64,000 nt of DNA from a virus (taxonomy: Duplodnaviria; Caudoviricetes): IMG/VR virus record IMGVR_UViG_3300025849_003344. One strand, 5' to 3'. The notes under the pieces are model-generated. The model did no database searches. It worked only from the letters and a program-made list of their open reading frames with translations, and was not told the origin of the DNA. Below, piece by piece: positions 26,434-45,374 of the stretch. A program made the translations under genes and the position numbers. Position 1 is the first letter of the stretch. Each line of letters begins with the position of its first letter.

Positions 26434-27114
26434 TTAATTTAGCTTTATTGGAAATATTTTTTCAATAGCTTTACCTACTTCGATAGCCAAATCCATATGT
26501 TCTTTCTGTGTTCCATTTGCAGATCGAAGTTCGATATAATGAATCCATGATCTAATAGTACCATTCACATACAATCTAGAAACGGTATTGCCTTCTGGCA
26601 GAACAGCTCTGGCTTGCTCTTTGGCAATGCCTGCTTCAATAGCCCAGTCATAAGCATGCTTCGCCGCTTCGATTACTTTTTGCTGATGGGCATGCCACGC
26701 TCTTTGAAGATGTTTATCATCTGTATCAATTGAGTTCTGGCGGTTCTTAGTATCTTGTAGGCGCGCCTCTCGAATTACAAAATTATTACCAAGATCACGT
26801 ACATCAGCATAGCGCTGACTAAACTCCTGAAAAGAAAACGAACGATGCCGGAGTAACTGTCTGGCGATGTCTCTTGTCGTGGTGACTTCGATGCACGCTG
26901 ACGCCATTTCGAATGGTGACCAGTGCTTGTGCTTGACGAGGTACTCCAAGAGTTTTTGTGTTGTCTTTGTGTTCCGCTGATTCGACGGATTGGAGACACG
27001 GGCGGCAAACGCGATGAGATCCGCAATGTTATCTAAACCTCCTATTGCCAATTCTCCGCCATGAATACGGTAAGATGGCTGACTGTGTGAAATTAGGCGA
27101 GCTTCCATGGTCAT
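26434..27114 (-). CDS. thyX: Flavin-dependent thymidylate synthase
   Basis: HWSPFE, RHRSFSFQEFSQRY, RSWIHYIELR. Confidence 0.95.
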   Translation of the reverse strand: MTMEARLISHSQPSYRIHGGELAIGGLDNIADLIAFAARVSNPSNQRNTKTTQKLLEYLVKHKHWSPFEMASACIEVTTTRDIARQLLRHRSFSFQEFSQRYADVRDLGNNFVIREARLQDTKNRQNSIDTDDKHLQRAWHAHQQKVIEAAKHAYDWAIEAGIAKEQARAVLPEGNTVSRLYVNGTIRSWIHYIELRSANGTQKEHMDLAIEVGKAIEKIFPIKLN

Positions 27115-28475
27115 AGTTTAAAGTCCTCAAATCTTTTATTTGCTTCTGATTTATCAAATACTGGAGTATCATCCATTAGAGATTGGTTATTTTCGTCTAC
27201 GTCAAATAGACGCATCTTAGATCTATCTATTCCTAGAATAAACCTTTTCTTATATGTTGGATCATTATAGCGATTCTTCAATTGCTTAACCATCAGTTGT
27301 CCTTGTTGTTCAAGTTCTTCGGTTGAAACAAGTGCGAACATAAGGTCGGCCGTTGCGGGTAATCCAAAAGACTCGGACGTATCTTCAAGCCCAACATCTG
27401 AGTTAGAGTAACCACTACGCGTCGTCTGAGTTGCAGATACGACCGGAACGTCAAATTCAACTGCAAGGCCTCTAAGTTCTTCTGCAATCGCTTTGACATA
27501 AGTGTAAGAGTTGATAGCACCGCCCATACCTTTCATACGTGAAGACGAACAGATATTTAAATAATCAATAAAGATAATATCTGGTTCAAATTTCTTTTTA
27601 AGTTTTAACTCATTTAGTAATGCCCTAAAGTGCCCAGAGTGTGCTGAACCCGTTGGATATTCTTTTACGATCAATCGGCCAGTTGTTTGTTTTGCTAGTT
27701 GAGATACCTTTTGTGAAAACATATCTTTCGAAAGTTTGTCTAGCTGATCAATAGGGATATTAAGAAGATTAGCATCAATGCGTTCAGCGATACGTTCTTC
27801 TGCCATTTCCATAGTAATATACAAAACATTTTTTTGGTCAGTCAATGCTGCAGCGCCCATGTGGCACATAAACAAAGACTTACCGACACCGGTGCCAGCC
27901 AAAGCAATATTCAATGTCTTGTTTGGCAAGCCGCCCTTAGTAATCTTATTAAAGTAGTCGAGATCAAAGGCAATACGTTCTTCTTCTTTATGGTAAAACT
28001 CATAACGATCATTGAAGTTTTCAATATAGTCATGACCGATATTCGCGTCAAAGTTAACTGCCAGAGCATCAGAGAGGATCTCTGGTAGCGCATTCTTTGA
28101 AAGCGTTTGGTGTTTACCGTCAATAATACTGATAGATTCCATTACTGCATTGTGCAATGCTCTATCTTGACACCACTTCTCGGTTTTATCGATTAGCCAT
28201 TCATAATCAATATCTTCGACTTTAAAGATCTCTGGTAGGATCTCAACAGCATGCCGATATTGTTCATCGTTAAAGCTATCAGAATCATCTAACTCAATCT
28301 TAAATGATTCCTGAGTTGGTAGTTTATTATATTTAGAAACGTATTTGCCGACTTCCTTAAACAGCTGACGATAGACACCTTCAAAATATTCATTATGTAT
28401 AAAAGGTAAAACCTTCCGCATGAATTTATCATTCACCAAAAGGTTTCTCAAAATTGTTTGTTCAATGTTCGTCAA
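27111..28475 (-). CDS. 41: Replicative DNA helicase gp41
   Basis: AGTGVGKS, ITMEMAEE, IDYLNI, TQTTR, KQLKNRY. Confidence 0.95.
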   Translation of the reverse strand: MTNIEQTILRNLLVNDKFMRKVLPFIHNEYFEGVYRQLFKEVGKYVSKYNKLPTQESFKIELDDSDSFNDEQYRHAVEILPEIFKVEDIDYEWLIDKTEKWCQDRALHNAVMESISIIDGKHQTLSKNALPEILSDALAVNFDANIGHDYIENFNDRYEFYHKEEERIAFDLDYFNKITKGGLPNKTLNIALAGTGVGKSLFMCHMGAAALTDQKNVLYITMEMAEERIAERIDANLLNIPIDQLDKLSKDMFSQKVSQLAKQTTGRLIVKEYPTGSAHSGHFRALLNELKLKKKFEPDIIFIDYLNICSSSRMKGMGGAINSYTYVKAIAEELRGLAVEFDVPVVSATQTTRSGYSNSDVGLEDTSESFGLPATADLMFALVSTEELEQQGQLMVKQLKNRYNDPTYKKRFILGIDRSKMRLFDVDENNQSLMDDTPVFDKSEANKRFEDFKL

Positions 28476-28882
28476 AGCATTCCCTCTTCACGCATTTTTG
28501 CACGGATTTTTGTAGCACTAATATTATGAATATCATTACCAAGATCGTGCTGCGTGAAGGTATATCCGACGCCACGACCATAGCTAATGTCTACGATGTT
28601 TGGTACCTCCATTATAACATATTCTTTATTGATAGTAAACCCCTCACGGGCCAATCCTTCAACAATTTGTGAAGAAACAAAATCAAATCCAAAGGGATTA
28701 TCAGTTTGAGCTTCTGTCCTTCCACCGCCAGCATCTTCACCAACAATCCCGCCAACATCACGAACCATAATAACAACTTGCCCGGTTTGACCCAAAGCTT
28801 TTTTAAATAATTCCGTGTGGCCTTTATGCCAAGGCTGCCATCGCCCTAACATTTGCGCCGACGGCTTTTTCCAATCAAACAT
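28472..28882 (-). CDS. HIGH-family nucleotidyltransferase-like protein
   Basis: LGRWQPWHKGH; C-terminal ISATKIR. Confidence 0.75.
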   Translation of the reverse strand: MFDWKKPSAQMLGRWQPWHKGHTELFKKALGQTGQVVIMVRDVGGIVGEDAGGGRTEAQTDNPFGFDFVSSQIVEGLAREGFTINKEYVIMEVPNIVDISYGRGVGYTFTQHDLGNDIHNISATKIRAKMREEGML

Positions 28883-29294
28883 GGTATGTCTCCTTCATCC
28901 GGTTAGCTAAATCTAGGATCCACTCATCAGATTGAAATGCGTCAATAACATAATCAAAGTCGGTTGGCTCTTCGAAGATCTTGTTGGTATCATCAAACCG
29001 GCCTGCTTCGATAGTGTTCATCCAAATTATGATATCGGCGTTGAACTCTTGACGAGTAGCACCTGTTGGACAAACAAAGTCACATATGACAGTACGACCT
29101 CTAGTACCTTCAAATGTTGCAATCGTATTCATACGCTCTGATTGTCGCCTACGACCAGCATCACTAAAGTCCCAGTCATTCGCCATTTCCCGTACTTTAT
29201 CAGCATTGTACCAAGCACAATTCAGATGGATCTGTAGCCGCTTGGCTAGATGTGTTTTACCAGAACCTGGCAATCCCATTATTAGTATTTTCAT
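28875..29294 (-). CDS. cysC: Adenylylsulfate kinase-like P-loop kinase
   Basis: GLPGSGKT, NADKVR, DFS..GR.RQ, CDFVCP, FEEP. Confidence 0.7.
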   Translation of the reverse strand: MKILIMGLPGSGKTHLAKRLQIHLNCAWYNADKVREMANDWDFSDAGRRRQSERMNTIATFEGTRGRTVICDFVCPTGATRQEFNADIIIWMNTIEAGRFDDTNKIFEEPTDFDYVIDAFQSDEWILDLANRMKETYHV

Positions 29295-29596
29295 TTTTTG
29301 TCTTCCATAAGCAATTCATCTTTTAAGATTGCCATTTCAATCACGTCGTGCAGTACTAATCCGGTATATTGTTGAAAGTTTTCGTCGTCAGTATTTAAGG
29401 TATCATCAGGCGTTTCAATGATTTCAAAATTATAATGAATAGCTTCATCTGGCCCATTAATTGTAATAGCGCCAAATTGTATTACTGTTTCAACGTATGG
29501 ACCAGTAAGAACTCTGATCCACCAAGACTGATCGTTTTCTGGTGATGGAATTAATTCGTAATCTACCCCTTCTGAGAGTTTGTCGATATTAATCAT
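29291..29596 (-). CDS. Hypothetical protein at the gp40 position between uvsX and 41
   Basis: 101 aa acidic; synteny only. Confidence 0.5.
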   Translation of the reverse strand: MINIDKLSEGVDYELIPSPENDQSWWIRVLTGPYVETVIQFGAITINGPDEAIHYNFEIIETPDDTLNTDDENFQQYTGLVLHDVIEMAILKDELLMEDKK

Positions 29597-30642
29597 TATG
29601 CTTCCTCAATGATTTCATCCATGGATACTTGTTCTCTGTGGCCGATCGTGTATTGCTTTTTCAAGAACTCTTTAAAATCCGTATCAGCAAAGATTGGGTC
29701 CCAGAAGGACTGATCGAGAGTGGCATCGTGCCGAACTTTTGGTCCAACTTCGCCAGTAGTTTGATCGACCATAGCATACCAGCCATTGGAAGGCTTAGTA
29801 ACATAACCACCAGCAAGAGCGCAATCGAGCAAACCAGAATACTTACGGACACCACCGTCCCAAGAAACAGTAATAGGAATTTTAGATTTTTCTTTAACAT
29901 AGCGTGATTTCTCTACATTGATTACAAAATGGTACCCTTGAATCTCTGTACCCTTTTTGTCTTGCTGACGACCAAGGATCCAAATATTATCTGCAGAATA
30001 ATAAATGCCTGTGCCACCAGAAACAATAGCTTTAGGGAACAAGCCGATTTCTTGGTACGTATGATTAACTGCTAACATAGGAATGTTTTTCATAGCAAGA
30101 TATGGCGTGGCCATACGGAACAATCCTTTAAGAGCTTTTGCTCTTGACATATCAGCAACTGACTTTTCGTTTAGTGCATCTTCCATTTCTTTTTTAGAAG
30201 CAAGGTTGCCAATAGAATCAATGACGACAATTACTTTATCACCGCGGTCTAACGATTCTAATTGACCAATCATATCGAATTTTAGTTCTTCTACGTTTGT
30301 AATTGGTGTATGAAGAACACGAGATGTATCAACTTCAAATTGCTCAAAGTATGCCTGAGGTGAACCAAACTCTGAATCATAGAACAACATTACAGCATCT
30401 TTATGCTTTTTCAAATATGCTGCTGCCATAATCAAAGCAAAAGAAGTTTTAAAATGCTTTGAAGGACCTGCAAGAACTGTAAGACCAGAAGCCAAACCTC
30501 CATCTACAGATCCAGATAGCGCCACGTTAATCATTGGCGAATCTGTCGGAGTCATATCTTTTTCATTAAAGAATTTTGACTCAGAAAGAACCTCCGTGTT
30601 TTTTAACTTAGAATTCTTTTTGAGTTTGTCCATTACTGACAT
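29596..30642 (-). CDS. uvsX: RecA-like recombinase UvsX
   Basis: AGPSKHFKT, YDSEFG, IDSIGNL, SGGTG. Confidence 0.95.
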   Translation of the reverse strand: MSVMDKLKKNSKLKNTEVLSESKFFNEKDMTPTDSPMINVALSGSVDGGLASGLTVLAGPSKHFKTSFALIMAAAYLKKHKDAVMLFYDSEFGSPQAYFEQFEVDTSRVLHTPITNVEELKFDMIGQLESLDRGDKVIVVIDSIGNLASKKEMEDALNEKSVADMSRAKALKGLFRMATPYLAMKNIPMLAVNHTYQEIGLFPKAIVSGGTGIYYSADNIWILGRQQDKKGTEIQGYHFVINVEKSRYVKEKSKIPITVSWDGGVRKYSGLLDCALAGGYVTKPSNGWYAMVDQTTGEVGPKVRHDATLDQSFWDPIFADTDFKEFLKKQYTIGHREQVSMDEIIEEA

Positions 30643-30653
30643 ATGTGTGTCTC

Positions 30654-31592
30654 CTAATTTACGTTATAATATTGTTTGTACCATGATACAAATTCAGCAA
30701 TACCAGTTTCAATATTTGTCATAGGTCTATAACCCAGTTTCTTGATCTCTGATATATCAGCTAATGTGTGACGAATGTCAGCTTTATGCATATCACAATA
30801 ATTAATGTCTGCTTTACGTTCTAGATTTTCTTCAATAAGATTTACGAATTTCATAAGCGGAATTGATTTTCCGCTGCCAATGTTATAGATTTCGTGAGAC
30901 TTACTTCTAAGCACTTTATCTATTAACAATTGTACACCATTTACGATGTCTTGTACATAGGTAAAATCGCGGGACATTTCGCCAAAGCCATAAACATCAA
31001 TTGGTCTACCTTTGATGATATTGTTTGTAAATCCATGTAAAGCCATGTCAGGTCGTCCATAAGGTCCATAGACTGTAAAAAATCTAAAGCCAATTGACGA
31101 AGGCAATTTACTGCTTTTAAATTGGCATTCATTTGCATATTTAGTCCAAGCATAAGGATTTAAATGATGCTTGAATTGCATATCCTCAACAAATGGAGGT
31201 TCTTGTCCTGCATAGACGCTAGAACTAGAAGCATAGACAACAGGAATATTAAGTTTTTCTGCCTGATCAATTACTCGTTGTGTTCCATTGATATTATTAT
31301 CAATATAGGTGTACGGATCGTCCAGCGAGTTTCTTACTCCAGCCCAAGCAGCCAAGTGAACAATTACATCTACGTCATCTAGATAATCTTGAAGGTAATT
31401 AAAATGCCGTATATCATCAGCATACGTTTGTATAGCCGAATCATTTAAAATCTTTGCTCGATCCATTTTTAGGTTTTTATCATAATAAGCGTTAAAGTTA
31501 TCTACACCTAAAATAGTATGCCCGAAAGCTTTAAGCTCACGGGCCAGATGAAACCCGATAAAGCCAGTTATTCCTGTTATGAATACTTTCAT
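30654..31592 (-). CDS. NAD-dependent epimerase, UDP-glucuronate 4-epimerase-like
   Basis: TGITGFIG, HLAAWAGVR, ASSSSVY, YAWTK, RFFTVYGP.GRPDM. Confidence 0.9.
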   Translation of the reverse strand: MKVFITGITGFIGFHLARELKAFGHTILGVDNFNAYYDKNLKMDRAKILNDSAIQTYADDIRHFNYLQDYLDDVDVIVHLAAWAGVRNSLDDPYTYIDNNINGTQRVIDQAEKLNIPVVYASSSSVYAGQEPPFVEDMQFKHHLNPYAWTKYANECQFKSSKLPSSIGFRFFTVYGPYGRPDMALHGFTNNIIKGRPIDVYGFGEMSRDFTYVQDIVNGVQLLIDKVLRSKSHEIYNIGSGKSIPLMKFVNLIEENLERKADINYCDMHKADIRHTLADISEIKKLGYRPMTNIETGIAEFVSWYKQYYNVN

Positions 31593-32440
31593 CGTTCATT
31601 CACGTGTGCTATTTCGCCAGTCATATTATACTGAATGTTTTGTTCTTTTTCTCTATCATCTTTTTCATATTCAGATCGATACTTATTATTACGATCCATG
31701 ACATATTCAAGCAACGGCATACGTGTAGTAAAGTTTATAAACGCCGAAACATCTTTTGGAAAACAAGCACCGCCAAAACCACGCTTGCCGTCAAAGCCAG
31801 GGACACGAGTATGGGCATGCCCAATTCTTGGATCAGTACCAATTGCATTTGCGATACGACCATAATTACCTCCGAACTCTTTTATCGAATCATAAAATTC
31901 GTTAAAGAATGTTAGTTTAGTTGCTAGAAAAGTATTGATTCCATATTTAACAAAGCTAGCATCAGTTGCTGCCATATGATATGAAGGACATGGTTTACAT
32001 ATACTGTATTCTTTATAAATTCTTTCCAGCTTTTCAGTAGCTTCGCTTTCGCCACCAAAGATATGTACGAATGGATTTATAATATCTTCATTGGCATTCT
32101 TTTCTGTCAAGAATTCTGGATTATAAACCATTCTATGTTTAGCAGAACCACGGAATAAATTTTCTATTCTATCAGGTGGTATTGTGGATTTAACAACTAT
32201 TAGACCGCTTCGTCGTTGTGCAACTTTCTTTAAAAGTTGTTCAACGATAGACGTATCGCACTGTCCATTTTCGTGCATTGGAGTCGGTAGACACATAAAT
32301 GTAACATCAGCAGATATTGATACATCATCTAAACCGACCCCATATTTAGGATCGATAATTTGTTTTTCTACGTCATCTTGAAATGCGTAATCGATTGCCT
32401 TGCCAACAAATCCGTGGCCAATGATTGTAATTTTTAACAT
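31589..32440 (-). CDS. ugd: UDP-glucose/GDP-mannose dehydrogenase (short form)
   Basis: IGHGFVG, CLPTP, KSTIPP, YNPEFL, GFGGACFPKD. Confidence 0.85.
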   Translation of the reverse strand: MLKITIIGHGFVGKAIDYAFQDDVEKQIIDPKYGVGLDDVSISADVTFMCLPTPMHENGQCDTSIVEQLLKKVAQRRSGLIVVKSTIPPDRIENLFRGSAKHRMVYNPEFLTEKNANEDIINPFVHIFGGESEATEKLERIYKEYSICKPCPSYHMAATDASFVKYGINTFLATKLTFFNEFYDSIKEFGGNYGRIANAIGTDPRIGHAHTRVPGFDGKRGFGGACFPKDVSAFINFTTRMPLLEYVMDRNNKYRSEYEKDDREKEQNIQYNMTGEIAHVNER

Positions 32441-32446
32441 AGTTTA

Positions 32447-33463
32447 TTATACCATAAATTCATCTAGTTGTACACCCCTCATAGGCGGAATTCCTTGTCT
32501 TTGTTCCCAGCCGGATTCCCATCCAGATGCATTTGATAATGTCGAAGGAATATGATCAAACGTTCCATTTCCACGTGGTACATAGTTTTGTCCGAACCTA
32601 ACAAAGTCACACATAACATCTTCAAGATCTTTTGGTTTACCACCAGTTTTTTCTCTTAATAAGTCCATAAAATTATCTGGCTTCCACCCACTTGATAATT
32701 TTTTCATGCACCTTACTGCGTTATTACCTAAATATGTATGAGAGTCTACGTCAGCATTTTCTGGAAAATAGTCAGAACAATCCATAGAGAAGGCAGCATA
32801 CTGAAAATTAAATTTACGATGACCAGCTTTTTTATTATGCTCATTTAAATGATCTACAATTTCTTTATGTCCTCTTTTTTTCAAAAGTAGAAAATCTGTA
32901 AACCTGTTAATAACTTCAGGCAATTCATTTACCATGAAGTCAACATTACTAACTCCTTTCTTTGGAGCCGGAGGTTGATTGCCTATAGACGTAAACATTG
33001 GTTTGCCTGAAGCTTTAGTCTCTGCTAAATCTTCTGCCATATCTTTAATGTCTCTATGTTTACTCCAATGTTGAATTATGTTATTACGATAACCGTGGTC
33101 ATTTTCAAATGAAGCCCCTGATCCAGTTATGCGATGACAAAGAAATGTGTATAGCCAGGTTTCAATAGTCCAGTTAATATCATCGTTTGATGCTGAAATC
33201 TTACGTCTATCTTCTTTCTGCCATCTCCACTTAGGAGTTTTAGATCCGAACCTTAGATCTTGTAATACGTTTGAGAAGCCTGCAGCATTTCTCGTTTTAC
33301 AATCGTAGATATCAATCTTTTGCATAAGAGGATCATTGATAATGTTATTTGCTTCTGGACCTTCATAGTCCAATTCACCCCAATTAACATTATCTTGTAA
33401 CCAACCGGCTTTTGGATAATAATAATTTACAAGAACATCAATTGCTTCTTCATTGAGCCACAT
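32447..33463 (-). CDS. aGPT-Pplase-like (HhH glycosylase fold) DNA base-modification enzyme
   Basis: FQY...MD...Y...D...YLGNNAVRCM...DLEDVMCDFVRF parallels clade-1 aGPT-Pplase motifs (F.Y...D..., GPGA..GL, E..LCE..KY); sits next to a PLP enzyme and a TS homologue. Confidence 0.6.
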   Translation of the reverse strand: MWLNEEAIDVLVNYYYPKAGWLQDNVNWGELDYEGPEANNIINDPLMQKIDIYDCKTRNAAGFSNVLQDLRFGSKTPKWRWQKEDRRKISASNDDINWTIETWLYTFLCHRITGSGASFENDHGYRNNIIQHWSKHRDIKDMAEDLAETKASGKPMFTSIGNQPPAPKKGVSNVDFMVNELPEVINRFTDFLLLKKRGHKEIVDHLNEHNKKAGHRKFNFQYAAFSMDCSDYFPENADVDSHTYLGNNAVRCMKKLSSGWKPDNFMDLLREKTGGKPKDLEDVMCDFVRFGQNYVPRGNGTFDHIPSTLSNASGWESGWEQRQGIPPMRGVQLDEFMV

Positions 33464-34337
33464 TCTTTTCCCAATCTCTATATGAATCTATTGTATCTGG
33501 TAACGCTTGATTCTGTAATACTGGTTCCTGCCCTACATTCCAAAATAGAATATCGCGATTTGTATCTTTAGGAATATATTTCCATACTTTACCATCGTAG
33601 GTATCTATAGTTGGGAATGGTGGAAGATTATCTTTTTTCTCTGCCGCGGTAAACGCTAATGGTTCTGATACTGCCTCTGCAATACCCAATTCACCAGCCT
33701 TCATATTGCGTGACACGCAAACAGAAGTAAACTTGGCATTAGGCCACGCGATTTGTAAAGCTCTTGTAAGTACCCCAGTAGACGTGGCAGTATATACTTC
33801 TTCAGGTTCTTTTATCTTAGAAGCTGTCTTTACAATGCCTGCCGTTACCATTTCATGCTTAAGACCTAGCGGAACAAAGAAAGCATTCTTTCTTTCATCG
33901 GCCCATTTCTTTGCAATTAGATTTAAATTAGGCATAGCTGCTATTCTATGAAAACTAGTACGAGCCCCTCGTTCGATGCAGCAGGCTTGGTGATCGCTAA
34001 TTCGTTTTGAGGAGGGCATGAAAAGCATGACGTCTTTTTCGTGTCGCTTGGCCACGTCAAGTATACTAACACCAGCAAGGCCAGTGCGAGGTTGAACGTA
34101 AACGATAGTATCAATGTGAGGGCCCAGGCTACTGATGAGGCAATCGCCACCACGAACTTTAGAGCCAACCAAAAAATCATCACGGACAACACGAATATTG
34201 TTATGCCGGCTAATATGTGGGATTCCATAAGGATCCTCCCAGTTTTCTGCTAATTCTAAATAGTACTCTTTCGGGTCTCCGTAAAACGGATTAATATCTT
34301 TATTAATTTTATCAATAACGTGATTATTATGTGGCAA
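33450..34337 (-). CDS. PLP-dependent fold-II enzyme, ACC deaminase/D-cysteine desulfhydrase-like
   Basis: VVRDDFLVGSKVRG, TATSTGV, DTYDGKVW, LFWNVG. Confidence 0.75.
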   Translation of the reverse strand: MPHNNHVIDKINKDINPFYGDPKEYYLELAENWEDPYGIPHISRHNNIRVVRDDFLVGSKVRGGDCLISSLGPHIDTIVYVQPRTGLAGVSILDVAKRHEKDVMLFMPSSKRISDHQACCIERGARTSFHRIAAMPNLNLIAKKWADERKNAFFVPLGLKHEMVTAGIVKTASKIKEPEEVYTATSTGVLTRALQIAWPNAKFTSVCVSRNMKAGELGIAEAVSEPLAFTAAEKKDNLPPFPTIDTYDGKVWKYIPKDTNRDILFWNVGQEPVLQNQALPDTIDSYRDWEKNVAQ

Positions 34338-35292
34338 GAGGCGATACTCCCCAATCGTTGCGTCTATAATATGGCGGGGCTATATGAAAACTAGAACCAT
34401 GTTCCATATAGGTATTTGCGTATTTTTCAGGATCCATTGTATACCATTCTTTTGGTGGCATAATGACTTTGCCTTTAGACTCATCATTAAGCACGTCAAT
34501 AAATTCGTTTGTAAGATCCCACCGCTCTTTCCATGAACCAAAGAATGGAGTCTTTTTGTAAAATCCTGATTTAGGTATACGTCTACCTTCAAACTCTACC
34601 GGCACTGGAGCGGTAAACCATACATCGTCAGATAATTCGTTGCCTTGTCTTACATATTCTTTTATTGTATATCTAAGAGAAAAATCGCCATGACGTAAAA
34701 CATGATGCCTAATATCAATTGAGCCCATACATAATGTAAGCTTTCCAATGGATTCCGATATTTCAGATCGTAAACCTTTTCGAATAGTTCCAAATAAAGT
34801 TTTACCATCAGTACGGTACACGCGATCGCCAGCCCCGCTATAAGCGATTGTGTGTGAATCTCCAAAGGTAATGCCATCGGTTTTTAGATCCTTCTGCTTG
34901 AGGGATGTAATACTTCTAATTCGTTTAGAGACAGCATTACACCACATAGGAGTGATGCCTTTATATGTTGTAGGAGCTTCAAGTCGTTTCTTCAACATCT
35001 CTCCATAATCAGGCATATCCCAATCTAACGAAACAATGTTATCGCATGACATTACAAGATTAATTCTATCATATACTTCTTTGTTAGCGCCACCAAACAA
35101 ATTCAAAGTACCACTAAAATTAGCCCCATGATCTATATAGACTACGTCAGCTTTTTTAATTTGAGGTGTGCATTTGTGGTCAATAGAAGCTTTTAATTGA
35201 TCTCGCCACAGTTGAGTCCACCCGTGCACGTGGGACTTTTCATTCTTGGGTATATTGCTTATAGGGTTCGTAATCACATTCGATAAATTCAT
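34327..35292 (-). CDS. Hypothetical protein with SGNH-like motif
   Basis: FGDSHT, MGSIDIRHH, C-terminal FHIAP; likely start MNLSNV. Confidence 0.55.
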   Translation of the reverse strand: MNLSNVITNPISNIPKNEKSHVHGWTQLWRDQLKASIDHKCTPQIKKADVVYIDHGANFSGTLNLFGGANKEVYDRINLVMSCDNIVSLDWDMPDYGEMLKKRLEAPTTYKGITPMWCNAVSKRIRSITSLKQKDLKTDGITFGDSHTIAYSGAGDRVYRTDGKTLFGTIRKGLRSEISESIGKLTLCMGSIDIRHHVLRHGDFSLRYTIKEYVRQGNELSDDVWFTAPVPVEFEGRRIPKSGFYKKTPFFGSWKERWDLTNEFIDVLNDESKGKVIMPPKEWYTMDPEKYANTYMEHGSSFHIAPPYYRRNDWGVSPLAT

Positions 35293-35797
35293 ATTCAACT
35301 CCAGTTTCTCCAAACATATCGCTTGTACGCTCAAAGGATTCCAGCCACTTATCAGGATAATCGGCAGCAGGCATTACAACACGAGTTATGCCTACCTGTA
35401 TAATACCTTTTGCGCAGTCAGAGCAGACAGGAAGACCCCACACATACAAAGTTGCTTGATCTAATGATACGCCGTTATATGTGGCATTGTATATAACATT
35501 CTGTTCTGCGTGCACAACAAACTGATATTTTGTTTTTCTATCATTATAGCGGATATCGCCATCGTAAATTCCACGCGGAAAACCGTTATAACCCTGAGCT
35601 AATACTTGACCTTTAGATCCAACAGCGATTGCGCCGATCTGAGTAGACGGATCTTTAGACCAACTTGAGACTTCTCTTGCTAATCCCAAATAGCGGTGAT
35701 CCCACTTACTTGACAAGGTGGAAGTGCTTTTCATAGACGTGCAGGTTTTGTACTTGCCATGTAATAGAACCTTCTTCGATTTGAGCGCCGTCATCAT
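35240..35797 (-). CDS. cd: dCMP deaminase (true start probably about 35715)
   Basis: SKDPSTQIG, GYNG, HAEQN, PVCSDC. Confidence 0.92.
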   Translation of the reverse strand: MMTALKSKKVLLHGKYKTCTSMKSTSTLSSKWDHRYLGLAREVSSWSKDPSTQIGAIAVGSKGQVLAQGYNGFPRGIYDGDIRYNDRKTKYQFVVHAEQNVIYNATYNGVSLDQATLYVWGLPVCSDCAKGIIQVGITRVVMPAADYPDKWLESFERTSDMFGETGVEYEFIECDYEPYKQYTQE

Positions 35798-36389
35798 AAA
35801 GGCTTAAGCCGTTATAATCTCTGACTAATCTTCTCATTACTTCACGTTGCCATGCGTAATCATTCTTATATCCAAAGACAACATCATTAGAACGCATCTG
35901 AACTACAGAATGTAGAATGCTATCACGAATATAGTAAGTGACACTGTTAGTACAAATAAAATCCGATTTTCCATTTTCATTAAACTCCAACCAAATAGAC
36001 GGCCTATTGTAGATCATAGAAGCGCGCCGGCCGTCTGGTCTTTCTAACAATTCATCTAGCACACAACCATATTGATTATAGTATTTGTCTGAAAAGATAA
36101 GATGTCCATAATTAGAATTAATTTCACCATGTTTATTTGCAGCGTACTCCCAAGCTTTTGGAGGTACTTCGCGAATATCATTAATGTTTGTAGATTGGCT
36201 GTCATACCATTCTAATTCTTCTTGAACATAATCATAGCTGACTGTTCCAAAGATAGCTGGCTCATCAGCAATAAAAGATGCGCCAAGCATTTCTATTGTC
36301 TTAGCGCCGGTCTTATCGATTGTATAAGCTTCGTCTTTTAGTTCATCAATAAAATATTGACGAATGTCACGGACTGCTGTCATTTGCAT
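35706..36389 (-). CDS. 42: Thymidylate synthase homologue, gp42-like dCMP hydroxymethylase
   Basis: NSNYG, RRASMIYNRP, DFICT, MRSNDVVFGYKNDYAWQ with Asp at the pyrimidine-specificity position as in T4 gp42. Confidence 0.8.
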   Translation of the reverse strand: MQMTAVRDIRQYFIDELKDEAYTIDKTGAKTIEMLGASFIADEPAIFGTVSYDYVQEELEWYDSQSTNINDIREVPPKAWEYAANKHGEINSNYGHLIFSDKYYNQYGCVLDELLERPDGRRASMIYNRPSIWLEFNENGKSDFICTNSVTYYIRDSILHSVVQMRSNDVVFGYKNDYAWQREVMRRLVRDYNGLSLYDDGAQIEEGSITWQVQNLHVYEKHFHLVK

Positions 36390-36789
36390 ATTGAACTCTC
36401 TTTCTCAAATCAGACGACGAGAACCTATGGTCTCGCTTATTAAAATAAAGTTGAATGCCACGTTTGCGACACTCATCCTTACCAGTAAAATCTTTATCTC
36501 TGTACTCTTCACCAAGAATACGTACATCAATTGGATACATGTTTATTATATCACATAAATCAGATTCTGTACAATAAATAATTACCTCATCAACATATTT
36601 TATTGCTGCTAACTGAGCCTGTCTTTCTACTATCGATTGAACAGGTTGATTCTTTTTTGGTCTATCAAGCGTTGGATCTACTTGTAAACCACAAATCAAA
36701 TAGTCACAAACAGACTTTGCTTCACGTAACATGGCAACATGTCCCGCGTGAAGTAAATCAAATGTGGATGCTGTAAATCCTACTTTCAC
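36367..36789 (-). CDS. Cytidylyltransferase, TagD-like
   Basis: TFDLLHAGH, LGEEY, RFSSSDLR. Confidence 0.85.
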   Translation of the reverse strand: MKVGFTASTFDLLHAGHVAMLREAKSVCDYLICGLQVDPTLDRPKKNQPVQSIVERQAQLAAIKYVDEVIIYCTESDLCDIINMYPIDVRILGEEYRDKDFTGKDECRKRGIQLYFNKRDHRFSSSDLRKRVQYANDSSP

Positions 36790-37127
36790 GCGTGGCCTAC
36801 TGTTTCTCGTTTAATATCGTTGTGATTAAACTCAGCCCAGTACAACTCAAACGCTACGCCATCTTCAAGACATTCGAATTGATGATATACACCTGGCTTG
36901 ACCTTTGTGTACATTCCAGGCTCGAGAATGGTTTCATCAACCAAGTCGTAGTCTTTCTGCCATACACGAATAAGCATACGACCCGACTCTACATAGAATC
37001 CATTCCACTTAAATTCATGAAGATGCTTAGAACACACTCCACCTTTATTCATTTCAATGCGATGGAATTCCAAAGCACCATTTGCTTCTACGAGTTCCGT
37101 ATTTCCCCACACCTTACCTGCGATCAT
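36786..37127 (-). CDS. Cupin, sugar isomerase-like
   Basis: KVWG, CSKHLH..K.NGF.V.SG, PG..HQF. Confidence 0.7.
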
Positions 37128-37360
37128 TCTAATTCTCCTCGCTGTGATTTTATCACCTGTTCATACATAAAAAATAATTGCTCAAACTTCCACTGATAAA
37201 GTTGCTGAATCCCCATGAGGGCGTTCATCATCTCATCGTGGGTAGGCTCACGTTCACCATCACCGATCTGTTTGAACACTGTCTCAAGATCATTACATAT
37301 ATGCCAACAGTCCATAATTGGCTGTTCAAGATCGTATAGTTTCATTCCATTTCCTTGCAT
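37124..37360 (-). CDS. Hypothetical protein
   Basis: 78 aa; [11 protein letters not shown]...[10 protein letters not shown]. Confidence 0.55.
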
Positions 37361-38009
37361 CTTCTGCTGTGTTAATTTCTATTCCATTAAACTCGCATGG
37401 AAATACACCTATATCCCAGCCATTTTTTAGCCAACGTAATTGTTCTAATCCTTCTATTCGTTCTTCGCGGGTGCCTGTCAAACCTGGATACATTTCTAGG
37501 GCATTTCGCTTGTATCCATAGATACCTAAATGCCAATCTCCATATCCTGTTATGCCTCTACCAAACCACAAACATTTATCAGCTGCTCTCACTAACTTAA
37601 CTGTGTTGGGATCATTCTGCTGTTCTTCTGGCATCATAGCACACATAGTAGTAACAGAATAATTTTTTAAATGCCAGATAGTCTTTTCAATCATCTCTTG
37701 CGTCACATCTGGCATGTCACCTTGTACGTTAATGAACTGATCATATTGCTTAAAGAACCGAGACTTTATAGCACCTGCGCATCTCTCTGTTCCATTAGAA
37801 TATTCAGTTTTATCTATCCAACAATTATTAGATCCAAATAAGGAAAAAATACGCATATCATCTGTCAACACATAAGTGTCGATGCCGGATTGTACGCAAT
37901 TATCGTAGACACGTTGAATCATTGGCGCGCCGCCCAGATCTACAAGCGGTTTGCCAGGAAATCTTGTAGAATTATATCTAGCTGGAATAAGTATTGCTGT
38001 TGACGTCAT
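37326..38009 (-). CDS. kdsB: CMP-KDO synthetase
   Basis: [39 protein letters not shown]. Confidence 0.9.
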
Positions 38010-38760
38010 AATTAAACTCTACTATCTGCTCTACTACTTTATCAAAATCTTCTAATTTTAACATATTAGGTCCATCACTTGGCGCATTGTCTGGATCTTC
38101 ATGTACTTCTATGAAGAAGTTTGAAACACCCAAAGCAGAAGCAGACCTGCAAAGACCTGGGACATAATCCCTATTACCCCCACTACTATCACCTTGTCCT
38201 CCTGGCTTTTGCACTGAGTGAGTGGCATCAAGTACAATATTATCAAAATTGTCAAGCATGTACTGCAGGCCAGTAAAATCAACAACCAAGGTATTATATC
38301 CAAAACTTGTACCTCTTTCGGTGATCCAGACTTCTTTAGCATCCTTTGTTTTACTAAGAATGCCTTTAACATCCCACGGTGCTAGGAACTGGCCTTTCTT
38401 AATATTAACAATGCAATCGGTGTTACAAGCAGCTAAAATAAGATCTGTTTGTCGACATAGAAATGCAGGAATCTGTAAAACATCTACAAAACTTCGGCAT
38501 CTACTTATTTGTCCCTCGGTGTGAACATCTGTTAAAATCTTTATACCAAGAGTTTCCTTTAAAGCTAAGAGATCCGGAAGAGCAGCATCAATTCCTACAC
38601 CGCGCTCGCCACTTAGAGACGTGCGATTAGCCTTATCAAAACTTGCTTTAAAATAATACTCTATGCCATACTTATTACATATCTCATTGCAATGCTCAGC
38701 AATTTTTAAAGACTGTTCAAATGATTCGTGCTGGCACGGTCCTGCAATTATTCTTATCAT
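37978..38760 (-). CDS. kdsA: KDO-8-phosphate synthase
   Basis: IAGPC, KASFDKANRTS, IPAFLCRQTDL, KKGQF, ERG, DATHSVQ. Confidence 0.95.
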   Translation of the reverse strand: MIRIIAGPCQHESFEQSLKIAEHCNEICNKYGIEYYFKASFDKANRTSLSGERGVGIDAALPDLLALKETLGIKILTDVHTEGQISRCRSFVDVLQIPAFLCRQTDLILAACNTDCIVNIKKGQFLAPWDVKGILSKTKDAKEVWITERGTSFGYNTLVVDFTGLQYMLDNFDNIVLDATHSVQKPGGQGDSSGGNRDYVPGLCRSASALGVSNFFIEVHEDPDNAPSDGPNMLKLEDFDKVVEQIVEFNYDVNSNTYSS

Positions 38761-38879
38761 TTAATAAAGTTCTCTTTAGGATTTCTTAATTCTTCTATAC
38801 GAATGTAAGCAGCATTCAATTGTTCTTGAAGCTGCCTAACATTTTCTTCTAGAATTTTTATATGCTCATCCTTCGTCAT
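38757..38879 (-). CDS. 40 aa coiled-coil peptide
   Basis: Hand translation MTKDEHIKILEENVRQLQEQLNAAYIRIEEL. Confidence 0.45.
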   Translation of the reverse strand: MTKDEHIKILEENVRQLQEQLNAAYIRIEELRNPKENFIK

Positions 38880-39210
38880 TTTTCTTTACTCTATTTAAGA
38901 AATCGCGATTAGGGTCTTGACCGTCAATTTTACCACGAGAATAGGCAACAGCAAACGAAGAATAATTAATTAGATCTTTGAGCGAATCTTCAACACCTTC
39001 AAAGTTAGGCTCATAGTTAGGATCATTCTCCATAGCTTCGAGTACAGACCATAGACGAATAGTCTTTGTGTTAATCAATTCCATGATTGACATGACGCCG
39101 CGTGGATAATAATCAGCTTGACGAATACGTGAGTTTTCGTTTTGATAATCGTTAGATTTTCTTGCTTGAATTTCTGCACATTCTTGCAGGACTTTTAGTG
39201 ATTCTTTCAT
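38866..39210 (-). CDS. Nucleotide-modification-associated domain (DUF1599/Nmad1-like)
   Basis: KSNDY, KTIRL, EDSLKDLINYS. Confidence 0.6.
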   Translation of the reverse strand: MKESLKVLQECAEIQARKSNDYQNENSRIRQADYYPRGVMSIMELINTKTIRLWSVLEAMENDPNYEPNFEGVEDSLKDLINYSSFAVAYSRGKIDGQDPNRDFLNRVKKNDEG

Positions 39211-39212
39211 CT

Positions 39213-39539
39213 TTATGCTGCTTTCATTTTATATAGATTAGTAGGACGATTAGTACGACCGTATTGACCTTTATCTTCGACATAAATCTTTTGACGTGTT
39301 CCAGAGCTATGATCGAAAGCTATACCTTTTTTTGCCATTGTACGCATTCTATCTTGAATAAGACTTTGAAATAATGGATCAGTAGCATGACCGCCGATCA
39401 GACCAATCATGTCGCTACCGGTAATATTACTATGGCTTGAGAATCTATGTAACTGATTAAAACATATTACCTCAGCTTGATGTCTATACGCAGCTCTTAC
39501 TGCAGCTTTTTTTAACTTTTCTTTTTCTTCACTATTCAT
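39213..39539 (-). CDS. Hypothetical protein
   Basis: 108 aa; own early promoter. Confidence 0.55.
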   Translation of the reverse strand: MNSEEKEKLKKAAVRAAYRHQAEVICFNQLHRFSSHSNITGSDMIGLIGGHATDPLFQSLIQDRMRTMAKKGIAFDHSSGTRQKIYVEDKGQYGRTNRPTNLYKMKAA

Positions 39540-40470: not shown

Positions 40471-41392
40471 ATTCTAATGCTCTATCTGCTTCAACGTCCA
40501 TAGGACGGTTTTCATACCAATTGCCAGTTCCCATATCAAACTCTCGACATAGATTAGTTATCTCATGTGACGTGATCGGATACTGTCGTTCAACAGCTCT
40601 TGCCGCAACCGCAACCATTATCTGATACATCTTATGATACCAGCCAGTATTTGAAATGATTTGATATTCTCCGGCCAGTTTCTTTGGCCAGAAAGGACAG
40701 TCACGATAACTTGTCCATACTATATTTGTATTATCTAGTTTTGATTTTTTGTGTTCAAGAACTTGTTTTTGTAAAGCTTCAGGGAGTCTATCGATAAAGT
40801 TTTTGCTTGATTTTTGTGCGTACTCATGTTTTGCCATGAGTTTGAATGGATCAATATGTTCGCCATCATCATTAGAAAAGATGAAGTTATAAGCATTATC
40901 GTAAGTTGCCGGAATATAATACATACGAGATAAATCTTTAGTCTGTTTATCTGCCATGTTACCAAGCTCTGAGTTGAGAGCATACCAGAAGTGCTTGATT
41001 TTATCTTGCTCAACGAAAGATTTAAGTGGGAAAACTACACGAAATTTTGGAAATTCATGAGTGCTACTAGCGGTACTATAACACACATATGTGTAATTAC
41101 CAAAGCGCTCATTAAGTTCATCTTCTAGTTTGCCCTTAAAAACGTGATCGTCAACATCAATAGCAGCCCAACCTGCCCAAGCATCCACATTCTTGTTGGC
41201 CCTAGTTGTATCAGAAACGTATACAGCTGGCGATATAAGTTGCGCATCTTTTTTTCCCTTTACAGGTTGTTTAGACAATTTATAGAAAAGCTCCGAGAGC
41301 TGTTGCCAGTTCTCGAAGTCCATTCTACGATGTGTTTTATTATCAAAGACGCTCTTAAAGAGCGTTAGCGAAATCGCCATGGTTACCCTCAT
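40451..41392 (-). CDS. AEP-superfamily primase/PrimPol-like protein
   Basis: AAIDVDD (DxD), YSTASS, KFRVVFPL, KDLSRMYY. Confidence 0.7.
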   Translation of the reverse strand: MRVTMAISLTLFKSVFDNKTHRRMDFENWQQLSELFYKLSKQPVKGKKDAQLISPAVYVSDTTRANKNVDAWAGWAAIDVDDHVFKGKLEDELNERFGNYTYVCYSTASSTHEFPKFRVVFPLKSFVEQDKIKHFWYALNSELGNMADKQTKDLSRMYYIPATYDNAYNFIFSNDDGEHIDPFKLMAKHEYAQKSSKNFIDRLPEALQKQVLEHKKSKLDNTNIVWTSYRDCPFWPKKLAGEYQIISNTGWYHKMYQIMVAVAARAVERQYPITSHEITNLCREFDMGTGNWYENRPMDVEADRALEYVYKNI

Positions 41393-41765
41393 GATCAGGA
41401 CCCTGCCAGTCAGCAGGTTTAATTAAGTCTGGTAAACCAAATGGATTAGGTCGACCAGGTTTCACTCCAGATTCTTTTGACATATTTGCTTCATAGATAG
41501 CGTCCCATGCTTTATTAGCATCGACACCAAATACGTCAAGCGTGCCAATAGCAAATACGCACATATCAATTAGCCCATCAACAATCTCTTCTGGATCTTT
41601 ATTGTCAAATGCATCTAGCGTTTCGCCTAGTTCTTCTTGGCACATTGATAAACGAAACTTGAGATACGTAGCCATTAAATCTTTATCGTCTTTATTTTTT
41701 TCAAACCATTCTTTGACACCAAATTTATTATGCATCATATAAATGTCATTAGCCCAATCGCTCAT
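41355..41765 (-). CDS. MazG/HisE-like dNTP pyrophosphohydrolase
   Basis: EELGE, EEIVDGLID, YEANMSK, DLIKP. Confidence 0.8.
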   Translation of the reverse strand: MSDWANDIYMMHNKFGVKEWFEKNKDDKDLMATYLKFRLSMCQEELGETLDAFDNKDPEEIVDGLIDMCVFAIGTLDVFGVDANKAWDAIYEANMSKESGVKPGRPNPFGLPDLIKPADWQGPDHEGNHGDFANAL

Positions 41766-45015: not shown

Positions 45016-45374
45016 TAGTAATGTTCTCCATCAGCTGCCCGACCATTATACTTAGATCCAGACTGTAGCAATTTATTAATTGAGTCTGGATTGTTTTCTG
45101 CTTGACGGAATGTTATCGCCGTAATTGTAATACCGCTAATTAATAGAAGATGAAATACAGCGCTAAGTCCGAATGCAATTATGCTGCCAACCATTAGGGC
45201 AAAGATACCACTCCAAATAAAGAACAAACATTGGAATACCATATGAGCTACCATAGGATCTAGTTTCCGAAGCGGCGAGTTCTCGATTGTCATTACGCTA
45301 TCCCACATTTCTCGTGGGAGTTTTACAAGTTCTGTAAGGGTAGTTTCCCACCCGATAGGTTTATTATATTTCAT
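45015..45374 (-). CDS. Small membrane protein
   Basis: SPLRKLDP...HMVFQCLFFIWS; 2 TMs. Confidence 0.65.
   Translation of the reverse strand: MKYNKPIGWETTLTELVKLPREMWDSVMTIENSPLRKLDPMVAHMVFQCLFFIWSGIFALMVGSIIAFGLSAVFHLLLISGITITAITFRQAENNPDSINKLLQSGSKYNGRAADGEHY

What the first reader, a model, noticed from the sequence alone, without database searches (positions are those of the whole stretch)
32447..36389. Candidate new cytosine hypermodification pathway: gp42-type enzyme plus amino-acid/amine-transfer machinery
Seen: five overlapping co-oriented genes (aGPT-Pplase-like transferase, ACC-deaminase-like PLP enzyme, SGNH-like protein, dCMP deaminase, TS homologue). The TS homologue reads RSNDVVFGYKND, with Asp where ThyA has Asn. 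Established: that Asp marks dCMP specificity in T4 gp42. To my knowledge, the characterised aGPT-Pplase/AADT and PLP pathways (SP10, phiW-14, ViI, M6) act on 5-hmU and use a 5-hmU DNA kinase. Inference: ThyX elsewhere in the window supplies normal T and I see no 5-hmU kinase in the cluster, so this may put an amino-acid or amine adduct on modified cytosine by a different activation route.
Basis: partly seen in the sequence, partly recalled or inferred. Interest (0 to 1): 0.88.

Follow-up and report, generated by a model that had tools for sequence, protein, structure and literature searches.

The report
Amino-acid-type hypermodification module for phage hydroxymethylcytosine
An uncultured marine T4-like phage couples a T4-type enzyme that makes 5-hydroxymethylcytosine to relatives of the transferase and vitamin-B6 (PLP) enzyme that put amino acids on thymine in other phages, so it probably makes an undescribed decorated cytosine in its DNA.

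Summary
Five co-oriented, overlapping minus-strand genes lie at 32447-36389.

- **TS homologue:** a T4 gp42-type dCMP hydroxymethylase. It carries all four diagnostic residues, including the Asp that separates 5hmC makers from 5-hydroxycytosine makers.
- **338-aa protein (P1):** no Pfam hit, but its model has the amino-acid:DNA transferase fold. The best solved match is PaMx11 gp46. It has an invariant EDxxC motif, like ETxxC in the characterised enzymes.
- **295-aa protein (P2):** belongs to the family of M6 gp52, the PLP decarboxylase that acts on amino acids already attached to DNA.
- **321-aa protein (P3):** an unassigned N-terminal domain plus an SGNH-like domain. It occurs naturally fused to P1.

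In IMG/VR, 31 of 31 loci with enough flank carry TS, P1, P2 and P3 together, in two gene orders. The set also occurs in a T7-like contig. No 5-hmU DNA kinase was found. The neighbouring sugar genes are sporadic.

Most likely (about 0.6), 5hmC in DNA is activated, given an amino acid or amine, then tailored by the PLP enzyme. This is a cytosine version of the ViI/M6 pathways with a different activation step. I found no paper describing it. There is no isolate and no chemistry. The same scan noted this stretch once more, on the same genome only.

The parts
35706..36389 (-). T4 gp42-type dCMP hydroxymethylase, which makes 5-hydroxymethyl-dCMP
   Evidence: phmmer E 1.2e-72 to T4 gp42 structures 1b49/6a9b. 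PF00303 E 1.5e-13. It has D/C/D/D at ThyA positions L143/C146/D169/N177, the same as T4 gp42. RB69 gp48 (5-hydroxy-dCMP synthase) has E/C/N/D (diagnostic rule from PMC13326640).
35240..35797 (-). dCMP deaminase (T4 cd analogue). Its true start is probably near 35734.
   Evidence: PF00383 E 3.7e-17. phrog_174 E 1e-40. Present in 28 of 31 full-flank related loci, but its position varies.
34327..35292 (-). P3: a two-domain protein with an unassigned N-terminal alpha/beta domain (about residues 1-135) and an SGNH/GDSL-like C-terminal domain (about 136-321). It is the candidate for the activation or acyl-transfer step. The longest ORF starts at 35334.
   Evidence: AF2 model pLDDT 83.6. VIA-align Z 10-11.3 to many GDSL/SGNH esterases over residues 136-321. 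Foldseek results agree. GDSH is invariant. phrog_13881 E 2.5e-97. Natural fusions of P3 and P1 exist.
33450..34337 (-). P2: fold-type-II PLP enzyme of the M6 gp52 / ViI gp226 family, which decarboxylates amino acids attached to DNA
   Evidence: phrog_7093 E 6.3e-34. M6 gp52 is the core member of that family (E 2.2e-159). hhalign to M6 gp52 gives probability 96.7%, E 3.8e-10, over 217 columns, and K60 aligns with gp52 K36. PF00291 is recorded on some family members. The biochemistry of gp52 is in PMC8989533 section 19.
32447..33463 (-). P1: a divergent protein of the amino-acid:DNA transferase (aGPT-Pplase) fold, with an invariant EDVMC motif at residues 281-285
   Evidence: AF2 model pLDDT 87.6, pTM 0.88. 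The best solved match is 8z2m, PaMx11 gp46 5-PmdU glycinyltransferase, Z 9.3; the next matches are all HhH glycosylases. BFVD 'Amino acid:DNA transferase domain' proteins match at TM 0.80. Atlas clusters that match carry PF18723/PF18724. EDVMC compares with ETVLC at 243-247 of M6 gp51. E281 and C285 are conserved in 98% and 96% of 63 family representatives.
41355..41765 (-). MazG-like (PRA-PH) NTP pyrophosphatase, a candidate dCTPase of the cytosine-replacement core. It lies outside the flagged coordinates.
   Evidence: PF01503 E 6.3e-9. 70% identical to the PRA-PH gene in L006, and 54% to the one beside the deaminase in the podovirus contig L005. TS, PRA-PH and dCMP deaminase co-occur on modified-cytosine contigs in PMC8670742.
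26434..27114 (-). ThyX, the flavin-dependent thymidylate synthase that supplies ordinary dTMP
   Evidence: PF02511 E 7.1e-44.

Best explanation
This is a phage pathway that replaces cytosine with 5-hydroxymethylcytosine and then decorates it on the DNA with an amino-acid-derived group. It is a cytosine counterpart of the thymidine hypermodification pathways of phages ViI, M6 and PaMx11.

Shown by homology:
- The gp42-type enzyme makes 5-hm-dCMP.
- A MazG-like pyrophosphatase and the dCMP deaminase form the usual nucleotide-pool core.
- ThyX makes dTMP.

Inferred steps after replication:
1. P3 turns the 5-hydroxymethyl group into a better leaving group. Given its SGNH-like domain, this is probably an ester rather than a phosphate.
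2. P1 attacks C6 with Cys285, expels the leaving group, and lets an amino acid or amine add to the exocyclic methylene, as the characterised amino-acid:DNA transferases do.
3. P2 forms a Schiff base through Lys60 with the free alpha-amine of the attached amino acid and decarboxylates or otherwise tailors it.

No radical-SAM isomerase is present. The amino acid should therefore be joined through its side chain, for example O-serine, S-cysteine, or the omega-amine of ornithine or lysine. The product would then be an aminoalkyl-type 5-substituted methylcytosine.
For: - **TS identity:** E 1e-72 to T4 gp42 and the D/C/D/D signature. All 54 TS genes linked to the module in IMG/VR keep MRSND..G..ND.
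- **P2:** in the M6 gp52 family, with the Schiff-base lysine aligned. gp52 and ViI gp226 decarboxylate amino acids attached to DNA (PMC8989533).
- **P1:** the top solved match is the AADT PaMx11 gp46 (Z 9.3), and only HhH-superfamily folds follow. BFVD AADT proteins match at TM 0.8. EDxxC is invariant, compared with the metal-binding Glu-Thr and catalytic Cys (ETxxC) of characterised enzymes (PMC11472151, PMC13458397).
- **P3 and P1 work together:** at least seven clusters at 50% identity are natural P3-P1 fusions. Their neighbours are a deaminase, a dUTPase_2-type pyrophosphatase, a PALP protein and a TS. This parallels the published kinase-AADT fusions (PMC8989533 section 21).
- **Co-occurrence:** 31 of 31 full-flank IMG/VR loci carry TS, P1, P2 and P3, in two gene orders. 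The same set occurs in a contig with a T7-type RNA polymerase.
- **Position:** the module sits between gene 43 and uvsX, where T4 has 42 and beta-gt and RB69 has its arabinosylation genes.
Against: - No Pfam or profile-profile match links P1 to the AADT families. The motif equivalence is not backed by a residue-level structural alignment.
- P3's role is a guess. SGNH enzymes are not known to activate DNA hydroxymethyl groups, its N-terminal domain is unassigned, and the block III asparagine is not conserved.
- P2 is only about 30% identical to gp52 and could catalyse a different PLP reaction.
- All characterised AADTs and gp52-type enzymes act on uracil derivatives.
- There is no isolate, no nucleoside analysis and no modification-aware sequencing.
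- The complex prediction for P3 with P1 gave no answer.
Confidence: 0.6

Rival explanations
1. The target is 5-hydroxymethyluracil, as in the known pathways. Here gp42 plus the linked dCMP deaminase would make 5-hm-dUMP by deaminating 5-hm-dCMP, and P1 and P2 would then act on hmU in DNA.
For: All characterised AADT and gp52-type enzymes act on 5-hmU derivatives (PMC8989533, PMC11472151, PMC13458397). A dCMP deaminase accompanies the module in 28 of 31 loci and in the podovirus contig.
Against: TS, dCMP deaminase and PRA-PH together are the generic signature of cytosine-replacing phages, including T4 and the 5-carbamoyloxymethylcytosine phages (PMC8670742). ThyX supplies normal dTMP. The deaminase is detached from the module in the second gene order. 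No dUMP hydroxymethylase, dTTPase or 5-hmU DNA kinase was found. P1 has Asp where the uracil enzymes have the metal-binding Thr. This recalls the Asn-to-Asp switch that sets cytosine specificity in TS enzymes, but that parallel is an inference.
Confidence: 0.12
2. P1 acts directly on 5hmC with no prior activation. P3 then works later as an esterase or acyltransferase that tailors or trims the adduct, or supplies the donor.
For: No kinase is present. P3 keeps a GDSH serine and an invariant C-terminal histidine, as in SGNH esterases and acyltransferases. From my own knowledge, cytosine C5-methyltransferases can exchange the hydroxyl of 5hmC with thiols without activation, so the chemistry is feasible.
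Against: P3-P1 fusions mirror the published kinase-AADT fusions, which suggests consecutive steps (PMC8989533 section 21). Hydroxide is a poor leaving group. This rival differs from the best explanation only in the order and role of P3.
Confidence: 0.15
3. The three unknown proteins do not modify DNA bases. They would be a metabolic or cell-surface set, perhaps working with the neighbouring sugar-nucleotide genes, that merely travels with gp42.
For: In this window KdsA, KdsB, a cupin, cytidylyltransferases, a UDP-glucose dehydrogenase and an epimerase flank the module. SGNH and PLP enzymes are common in small-molecule metabolism.
Against: The sugar genes are sporadic: KdsA in 8 of 80 loci, KdsB in 3, the epimerase in 15. 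They also occur in phage C48C1, which lacks the module. Meanwhile TS, P1, P2 and P3 co-occur in 31 of 31 loci. P1's nearest solved structure is a DNA-base-flipping transferase. P2's family acts on DNA-bound substrates (PMC8989533).
Confidence: 0.08

Closest known systems
Salmonella phage ViI pathway to 5-(2-aminoethoxy)methyluridine: 5-HMUDK gp67, AADT gp247, PLP decarboxylase gp226 (PMC8989533)
   Same: Three post-replicative steps: activate the hydroxymethylpyrimidine, transfer an amino acid with an HhH-fold cysteine enzyme, then decarboxylate with a gp52/gp226-type PLP enzyme. No radical-SAM isomerase is involved.
   Different: The base is made by a dCMP hydroxymethylase, not a dUMP hydroxymethylase. 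There is no P-loop 5-hmU DNA kinase; a two-domain SGNH-like protein stands in its place. The transferase is too divergent for Pfam and has EDxxC instead of ETxxC.
Pseudomonas phages M6 and PaMx11: AADT gp51 / gp46 (PUGT, PDB 8z2m) and PLP decarboxylase M6 gp52
   Same: P1's best solved structural match is PaMx11 gp46 (Z 9.3). P2 is in the gp52 family (phrog_7093). In both cases the transferase and PLP genes are adjacent.
   Different: M6 needs a radical-SAM isomerase and PaMx11 a flavin oxidase, and both are absent here. Their substrates are 5-phosphomethyl-dU. P1 and M6 gp51 share no detectable sequence-profile similarity.
T4 gp42 with beta-glucosyltransferase, and the metagenomic gp42 with 5hmC carbamoyltransferase (PMC8670742)
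   Same: The nucleotide core is the same: dCMP hydroxymethylase, dCMP deaminase and a pyrophosphatase. The genome position between genes 43 and uvsX is the same. The logic of decorating the 5hmC hydroxyl is the same.
   Different: The decorating enzymes are not a glycosyltransferase or a carbamoyltransferase. They are an AADT-fold protein, a PLP enzyme and an SGNH-like protein. This predicts a substitution at the methylene carbon, not simple O-glycosylation or O-carbamoylation.
RB69 / DLP3 5-hydroxy-dCMP synthase with arabinosyltransferases (PMC13326640)
   Same: A TS homologue with Asp at N177 sits in the same modification island of a T4-like genome, with sugar-nucleotide genes nearby.
   Different: The window's TS keeps Asp169, so it is the hydroxymethylase type rather than the D169N hydroxylase type. 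It is only 25% identical to RB69 gp48. No DNA glycosyltransferase was recognised.

Membership tests
T4 gp42-type dCMP hydroxymethylase | Thymidylate-synthase fold with close similarity to T4 gp42 | tested here: met
   PF00303 E 1.5e-13. phmmer E 1.2e-72 to 1b49 over residues 5-226.
T4 gp42-type dCMP hydroxymethylase | Catalytic Cys (ThyA C146), Asp at ThyA N177 (cytosine specificity), and an acidic residue at ThyA L143 (admits water) | tested here: met
   The alignment gives D, C and D at these positions, identical to T4 gp42. The rule is taken from PMC13326640 section 24.
T4 gp42-type dCMP hydroxymethylase | Asp kept at ThyA D169; Asn here marks 5-hydroxy-dCMP synthases | tested here: met
   RSND is present, so Asp is kept. 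RB69 gp48 has RSQN. All 54 module-linked TS genes read MRSND.
Amino-acid:DNA transferase / aGPT-Pplase (PF18724, PF18723 helical domain) | All-alpha HhH-type fold like PaMx11 gp46 and YuA Pplase2 | tested here: met
   8z2m_A is the top hit of 48,161 chains (Z 9.3, 204 residues aligned). BFVD AADT-domain proteins match at TM 0.80 and 27% identity. Matching atlas clusters carry PF18723/PF18724.
Amino-acid:DNA transferase / aGPT-Pplase (PF18724, PF18723 helical domain) | Match to the family's sequence models | tested here: not met
   No Pfam hit at E up to 10 for the 27 sequences of alignment A1 (the query plus 26 relatives), and none at E up to 1 for 10 distant relatives. hhalign to M6 gp51 gives probability below 1%.
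Amino-acid:DNA transferase / aGPT-Pplase (PF18724, PF18723 helical domain) | Catalytic Cys four residues after a metal-binding Glu-Thr (ETxxC) | tested here: inconclusive
   P1 has EDVMC at 281-285 on a C-terminal helix, and M6 gp51 has ETVLC at 243-247. E, D and C are 98%, 87% and 96% conserved in the family. Thr is replaced by Asp. No residue-level structural alignment was available to prove the two motifs are equivalent.
Amino-acid:DNA transferase / aGPT-Pplase (PF18724, PF18723 helical domain) | Works downstream of a P-loop 5-hmU DNA kinase | tested here: not met
   No kinase or PF18723 hit in the module. No window ORF resembles M6 gp54. The only nearby P-loop kinase (28875-29294) is in 11 of 80 related loci. 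The ViI gp67 and PhiW-14 gp37 kinase types were not queried directly.
M6 gp52 / ViI gp226 PLP decarboxylase of DNA-bound amino acids (phrog_7093) | Match to the family profile, and homology to gp52 | tested here: met
   phrog_7093 E 6.3e-34. gp52 itself scores E 2.2e-159. hhalign probability 96.7%, E 3.8e-10.
M6 gp52 / ViI gp226 PLP decarboxylase of DNA-bound amino acids (phrog_7093) | Schiff-base lysine (gp52 K36) | tested here: met
   P2 K60 aligns with gp52 K36 and is invariant in 14 diverse relatives.
M6 gp52 / ViI gp226 PLP decarboxylase of DNA-bound amino acids (phrog_7093) | Decarboxylates an amino acid attached to a DNA base | not testable with these tools
   This needs enzyme assays on modified DNA.
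SGNH/GDSL hydrolase | Three-layer alpha/beta/alpha SGNH fold | tested here: met
   Z 10-11.3 to more than 20 GDSL/SGNH structures over residues 136-321. Foldseek probability is 1.00.
SGNH/GDSL hydrolase | Block I GDS serine, block III GxND asparagine, block V DxxH | tested here: inconclusive
   GDSH is invariant. Block III reads GSID or GNID, so the Asn is not at the canonical place. An invariant C-terminal His (SSFH) has no Asp three residues before it. These assignments come from motif order, not from superposition.
T4 beta-glucosyltransferase (for the N-terminal domain of P3) | Sequence or profile similarity to T4 BGT | tested here: not met
   hhalign probability is 1%. Only a 12-residue patch matches (NLFGG against NFFGG). 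The shared genome position next to gene 42 is the only other link.

The most novel reading that the evidence does not exclude
P3 is a new kind of enzyme that activates the hydroxymethyl group of a DNA base through an ester rather than a phosphate. Together with a cytosine-adapted transferase (EDxxC) and a gp52-type PLP enzyme, it makes the first amino-acid- or polyamine-type hypermodified cytosine. That base would fully replace C in a widespread group of marine T4-like and T7-like phages.
Probability: 0.3. Interest if true: 0.9.

Novelty: new variant of a known kind. Interest (0 to 1): 0.78.

Why it matters
**What is known.** In the papers I could search, the described decorations of phage hydroxymethylcytosine are O-glycosylation and O-carbamoylation. 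Amino-acid and amine adducts are described only on thymine. I found no paper that links an amino-acid:DNA transferase to cytosine.

**What this would add.** The module would extend that chemistry to cytosine. It would also reveal a way to activate a hydroxymethyl base without the known kinase.

**How common it is.** The stretch occurs nearly unchanged in marine metagenomes from 15 studies. The transferase family has 138 clusters at 50% identity. A positively charged cytosine adduct could therefore be a common feature of ocean phage DNA. That would bear on restriction and CRISPR evasion, on sequencing bias in viromes, and on enzymatic labelling of 5hmC.

**How testable it is.** The prediction can be tested with three small soluble proteins and 5hmC-containing DNA, which is readily available.

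Tried and rejected
- **Pfam, NCBIfam and PHROG on P1:** nothing. The same held for 10 distant family members (Pfam only).
- **tblastn of P1 against 50,697 phage genomes:** no match. Megablast of the region gave no match either. No isolate carries this module.
- **Profile searches against PDB sequences:** none for P1. For P2, only a marginal hit to diaminopropionate ammonia-lyase.
- **hhalign of P1 profiles against M6 gp51:** not significant.
- **P3 N-terminal domain:** T4 beta-glucosyltransferase similarity is not supported. The protein-atlas feature search of residues 1-135 gave nothing.
- **Aeromonas phage 44RR ORF233c (795 aa):** its N-terminal half is P3-like. Its C-terminal half does not match the P1 profile, with only a weak PF18723 hit (E 0.0036). 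It is not counted as a P3-P1 fusion.
- **Complex prediction of P3 with P1:** no answer, score 0.00. This is neither for nor against binding.
- **Whole-genome search:** no genome is held for this window, so dNMP kinase, endonuclease IV and other T4-type genes outside the window could not be sought. An endonuclease IV homologue from L006 has no match in the window and is in only 3 of 80 loci.
- **The P-loop kinase at 28875-29294 as the missing activator:** rejected. It is unrelated to M6 gp54 and present in only 11 of 80 loci.
- **The sugar genes as part of the core:** rejected, because they are sporadic.

Full report
**Setting.** The window comes from an uncultured marine T4-like phage. Its UvsX is 76.5% identical to that of Phage C48C1 (Kyanoviridae), the closest deposited genome. 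C48C1 lacks the flagged genes between its primase and uvsX. The 3.9-kb stretch is found nearly unchanged in marine metagenomes from 15 studies. No whole genome is held for the window.

**The observation.** One search confirms five co-oriented, overlapping minus-strand ORFs at 32447-36389. Pfam names two of them: PF00303 for the 227-aa protein and PF00383 for the 185-aa protein. It finds nothing for the other three. ThyX lies at 26434-27114.

**The TS homologue.** It matches T4 gp42 structures at E 1.2e-72.
- A 2026 paper shows that some gp42-like enzymes make 5-hydroxy-dCMP instead, and that these carry Asn at ThyA position 169 (PMC13326640).
- My alignment gives D/C/D/D at ThyA L143/C146/D169/N177 for the window protein, for T4 gp42, and for the homologues in three related contigs.
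- RB69 gp48 has E/C/N/D and is only 25% identical. The M6 dUMP hydroxymethylase is 21% identical.
- All 54 TS genes found beside the module in IMG/VR read MRSND..G..ND.
- The enzyme is therefore a dCMP hydroxymethylase, not a thymidylate synthase, a dUMP hydroxymethylase or a cytosine hydroxylase.

**P1 (32447-33463, 338 aa).** It has hundreds of metagenomic relatives and no annotation.
- An AlphaFold model built from 27 sequences is confident (pLDDT 87.6) and all-helical.
- An exhaustive comparison with 48,161 solved chains puts PaMx11 gp46, the 5-phosphomethyl-dU glycinyltransferase, first (Z 9.3). AGOG, AlkA, EndoIII and related HhH glycosylases follow, and only 53 chains reach Z 2.
- BFVD proteins named 'Amino acid:DNA transferase domain' match at TM 0.80.
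- ESM-Atlas clusters with PF18723 and PF18724 members match at TM 0.52-0.74.
- At sequence level the link fails. There is no Pfam hit for 37 family members, and hhalign to M6 gp51 is not significant.
- One motif does carry over. The characterised enzymes coordinate a metal with Glu-Thr and use a Cys three residues later (PMC11472151; PMC13458397). M6 gp51 reads ETVLC at 243-247, and P1 reads EDVMC at 281-285 on its last long helix.
- E281, D282 and C285 are among the roughly 26 most conserved positions in 63 family representatives. EDVMC is invariant in 80 IMG/VR copies.
- In PaMx11 the metal contacts O4 of thymine. An Asp in place of Thr could instead accept a hydrogen bond from the N4 amino group of cytosine. 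This is my inference and is untested.

**P2 (33450-34337, 295 aa).** It hits phrog_7093 at E 6e-34.
- That family is built around M6 gp52 (E 2e-159).
- hhalign gives 96.7% probability over 217 columns and aligns K60 with K36, the proposed Schiff-base lysine of gp52.
- gp52 and ViI gp226 were shown to decarboxylate amino acids already attached to DNA (PMC8989533 section 19).
- P2 is therefore best described as a member of that family, not as an ACC-deaminase relative.

**P3 (34327-35292, 321 aa).** Its model (pLDDT 83.6) has two parts.
- The C-terminal domain matches many SGNH/GDSL esterases and O-acetyltransferases at Z 10-11. It has an invariant GDSH and an invariant C-terminal histidine.
- The N-terminal domain remains unassigned.
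- The key result is that P3 and P1 occur as one polypeptide in at least seven clusters: P0464, P0469, P0470, P0492, P0504, P0526 and P0549. BLASTP E-values run from 1e-15 to 1e-46 for each half.
- These fusions sit next to a deaminase, a pyrophosphatase, a PALP protein and a TS.

**Co-occurrence.** Of 80 IMG/VR loci with a P1 gene, 31 have at least 4 kb on both sides.
- All 31 carry P2, P3 and a gp42-type TS. Thirty carry UvsX and 28 carry a dCMP deaminase.
- Two gene orders occur: TS-cd-P3-P2-P1 and TS-P1-P2-P3.
- The same four genes occur in a contig with a T7-type RNA polymerase and in more distant T4-like contigs.
- The sugar genes that flank the module in this window are sporadic: KdsA in 8 of 80 loci, KdsB in 3, the epimerase in 15.
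- The nearby P-loop kinase is in 11 of 80 loci and is unrelated to the M6 kinase.
- The MazG-like PRA-PH gene at 41355-41765 is conserved. Together with the TS and the deaminase it forms the core already linked to modified cytosine (PMC8670742).

**Interpretation.** The three unknown proteins parallel the three post-replicative enzymes of phage ViI: kinase, transferase and PLP decarboxylase. The difference is that the base is cytosine and the kinase is replaced by P3.
- I therefore propose activation by P3, substitution by P1 through Cys285, and PLP-dependent tailoring by P2.
- No radical-SAM isomerase is present, so a side-chain-linked amino acid is expected.
- The role of P3, the donor and the final structure are all inferred.

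**Rivals.** Three alternatives remain open.
- A route through 5hmU by deamination of 5hm-dCMP.
- Direct action of P1 on 5hmC, with P3 acting later.
- A role unrelated to DNA.

**Expression.** Short contigs from marine metatranscriptome libraries of one study lie on P1, P2, P3 and the TS with few mismatches. This is compatible with expression, but DNA carry-over is not excluded.

**Novelty.** Six literature searches found no description of an amino-acid:DNA transferase or a gp52-type enzyme tied to hydroxymethylcytosine. I rate this a new variant of a known kind of system. It is well supported as a conserved module, but its chemistry is unproven.

Noticed in passing
L002 (Erythrobacter phage vB_EliS_R6L gp1) and L003:4105-5696 (Microcystis phage Mae-JY30): A P2-like PLP domain (phrog_7093, PF00291) is fused to an N6/N4 DNA methylase domain in R6L gp1. 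In Mae-JY30 it sits directly after a ParB-methylase gene. gp52-type PLP enzymes may therefore serve other, undescribed DNA modifications.
   Followed up: partly
L004:5007-7394 (Aeromonas phage 44RR2.8t ORF233c; also phages 31, 25, Aes012 and relatives): These cultured T4-like Aeromonas phages encode a gp42 homologue (47% identical). They also encode a 795-aa protein whose first 335 residues are P3-like and whose C-terminus weakly hits PF18723 (E 0.0036). No P2 homologue is present. They could be a tractable system for studying the P3 domain.
   Followed up: partly
window 36367-38760: KdsA, KdsB, a cupin and a TagD/RfaE-like cytidylyltransferase are inserted directly upstream of the gp42 gene. 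They are rare among related loci (3-15 of 80), so they are probably a separate sugar or cell-surface gene set. A link to DNA decoration in this particular phage is not excluded.
   Followed up: partly
window 28472-29294: A 139-aa APS-kinase-like P-loop protein and a 136-aa HxGH-type nucleotidyltransferase-like protein lie between uvsX and the gene 41 helicase. They are present only in the closest relatives (11 of 80 loci).
   Followed up: partly
window 30654-32440 and 48005-49114: A UDP-glucose dehydrogenase-like gene and an NAD-dependent epimerase separate the module from uvsX. The same pair is present in Phage C48C1, which lacks the module. A second UDP-glucose dehydrogenase-like gene lies at 48005-49114.
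   Followed up: no
ESM Atlas cluster matched by the P3 model (row 4): Proteins of 972 aa from giant viruses (Nucleocytoviricota), carrying glycosyltransferase domains PF04488 and PF01501, contain a part with the P3 two-domain fold (TM 0.56 by the query).
   Followed up: no
window 45374-45745 and 46141-46611: A cytochrome c (PF00034) and an Hsp20 small heat-shock protein are encoded just beyond the DNA polymerase gene.
   Followed up: no
window 29500-39300: Short contigs from marine metatranscriptome libraries of one study lie on the module genes with 0-4 mismatches. The DNA stretch is held by marine metagenome runs from 15 studies dated 2014-2024.
   Followed up: partly
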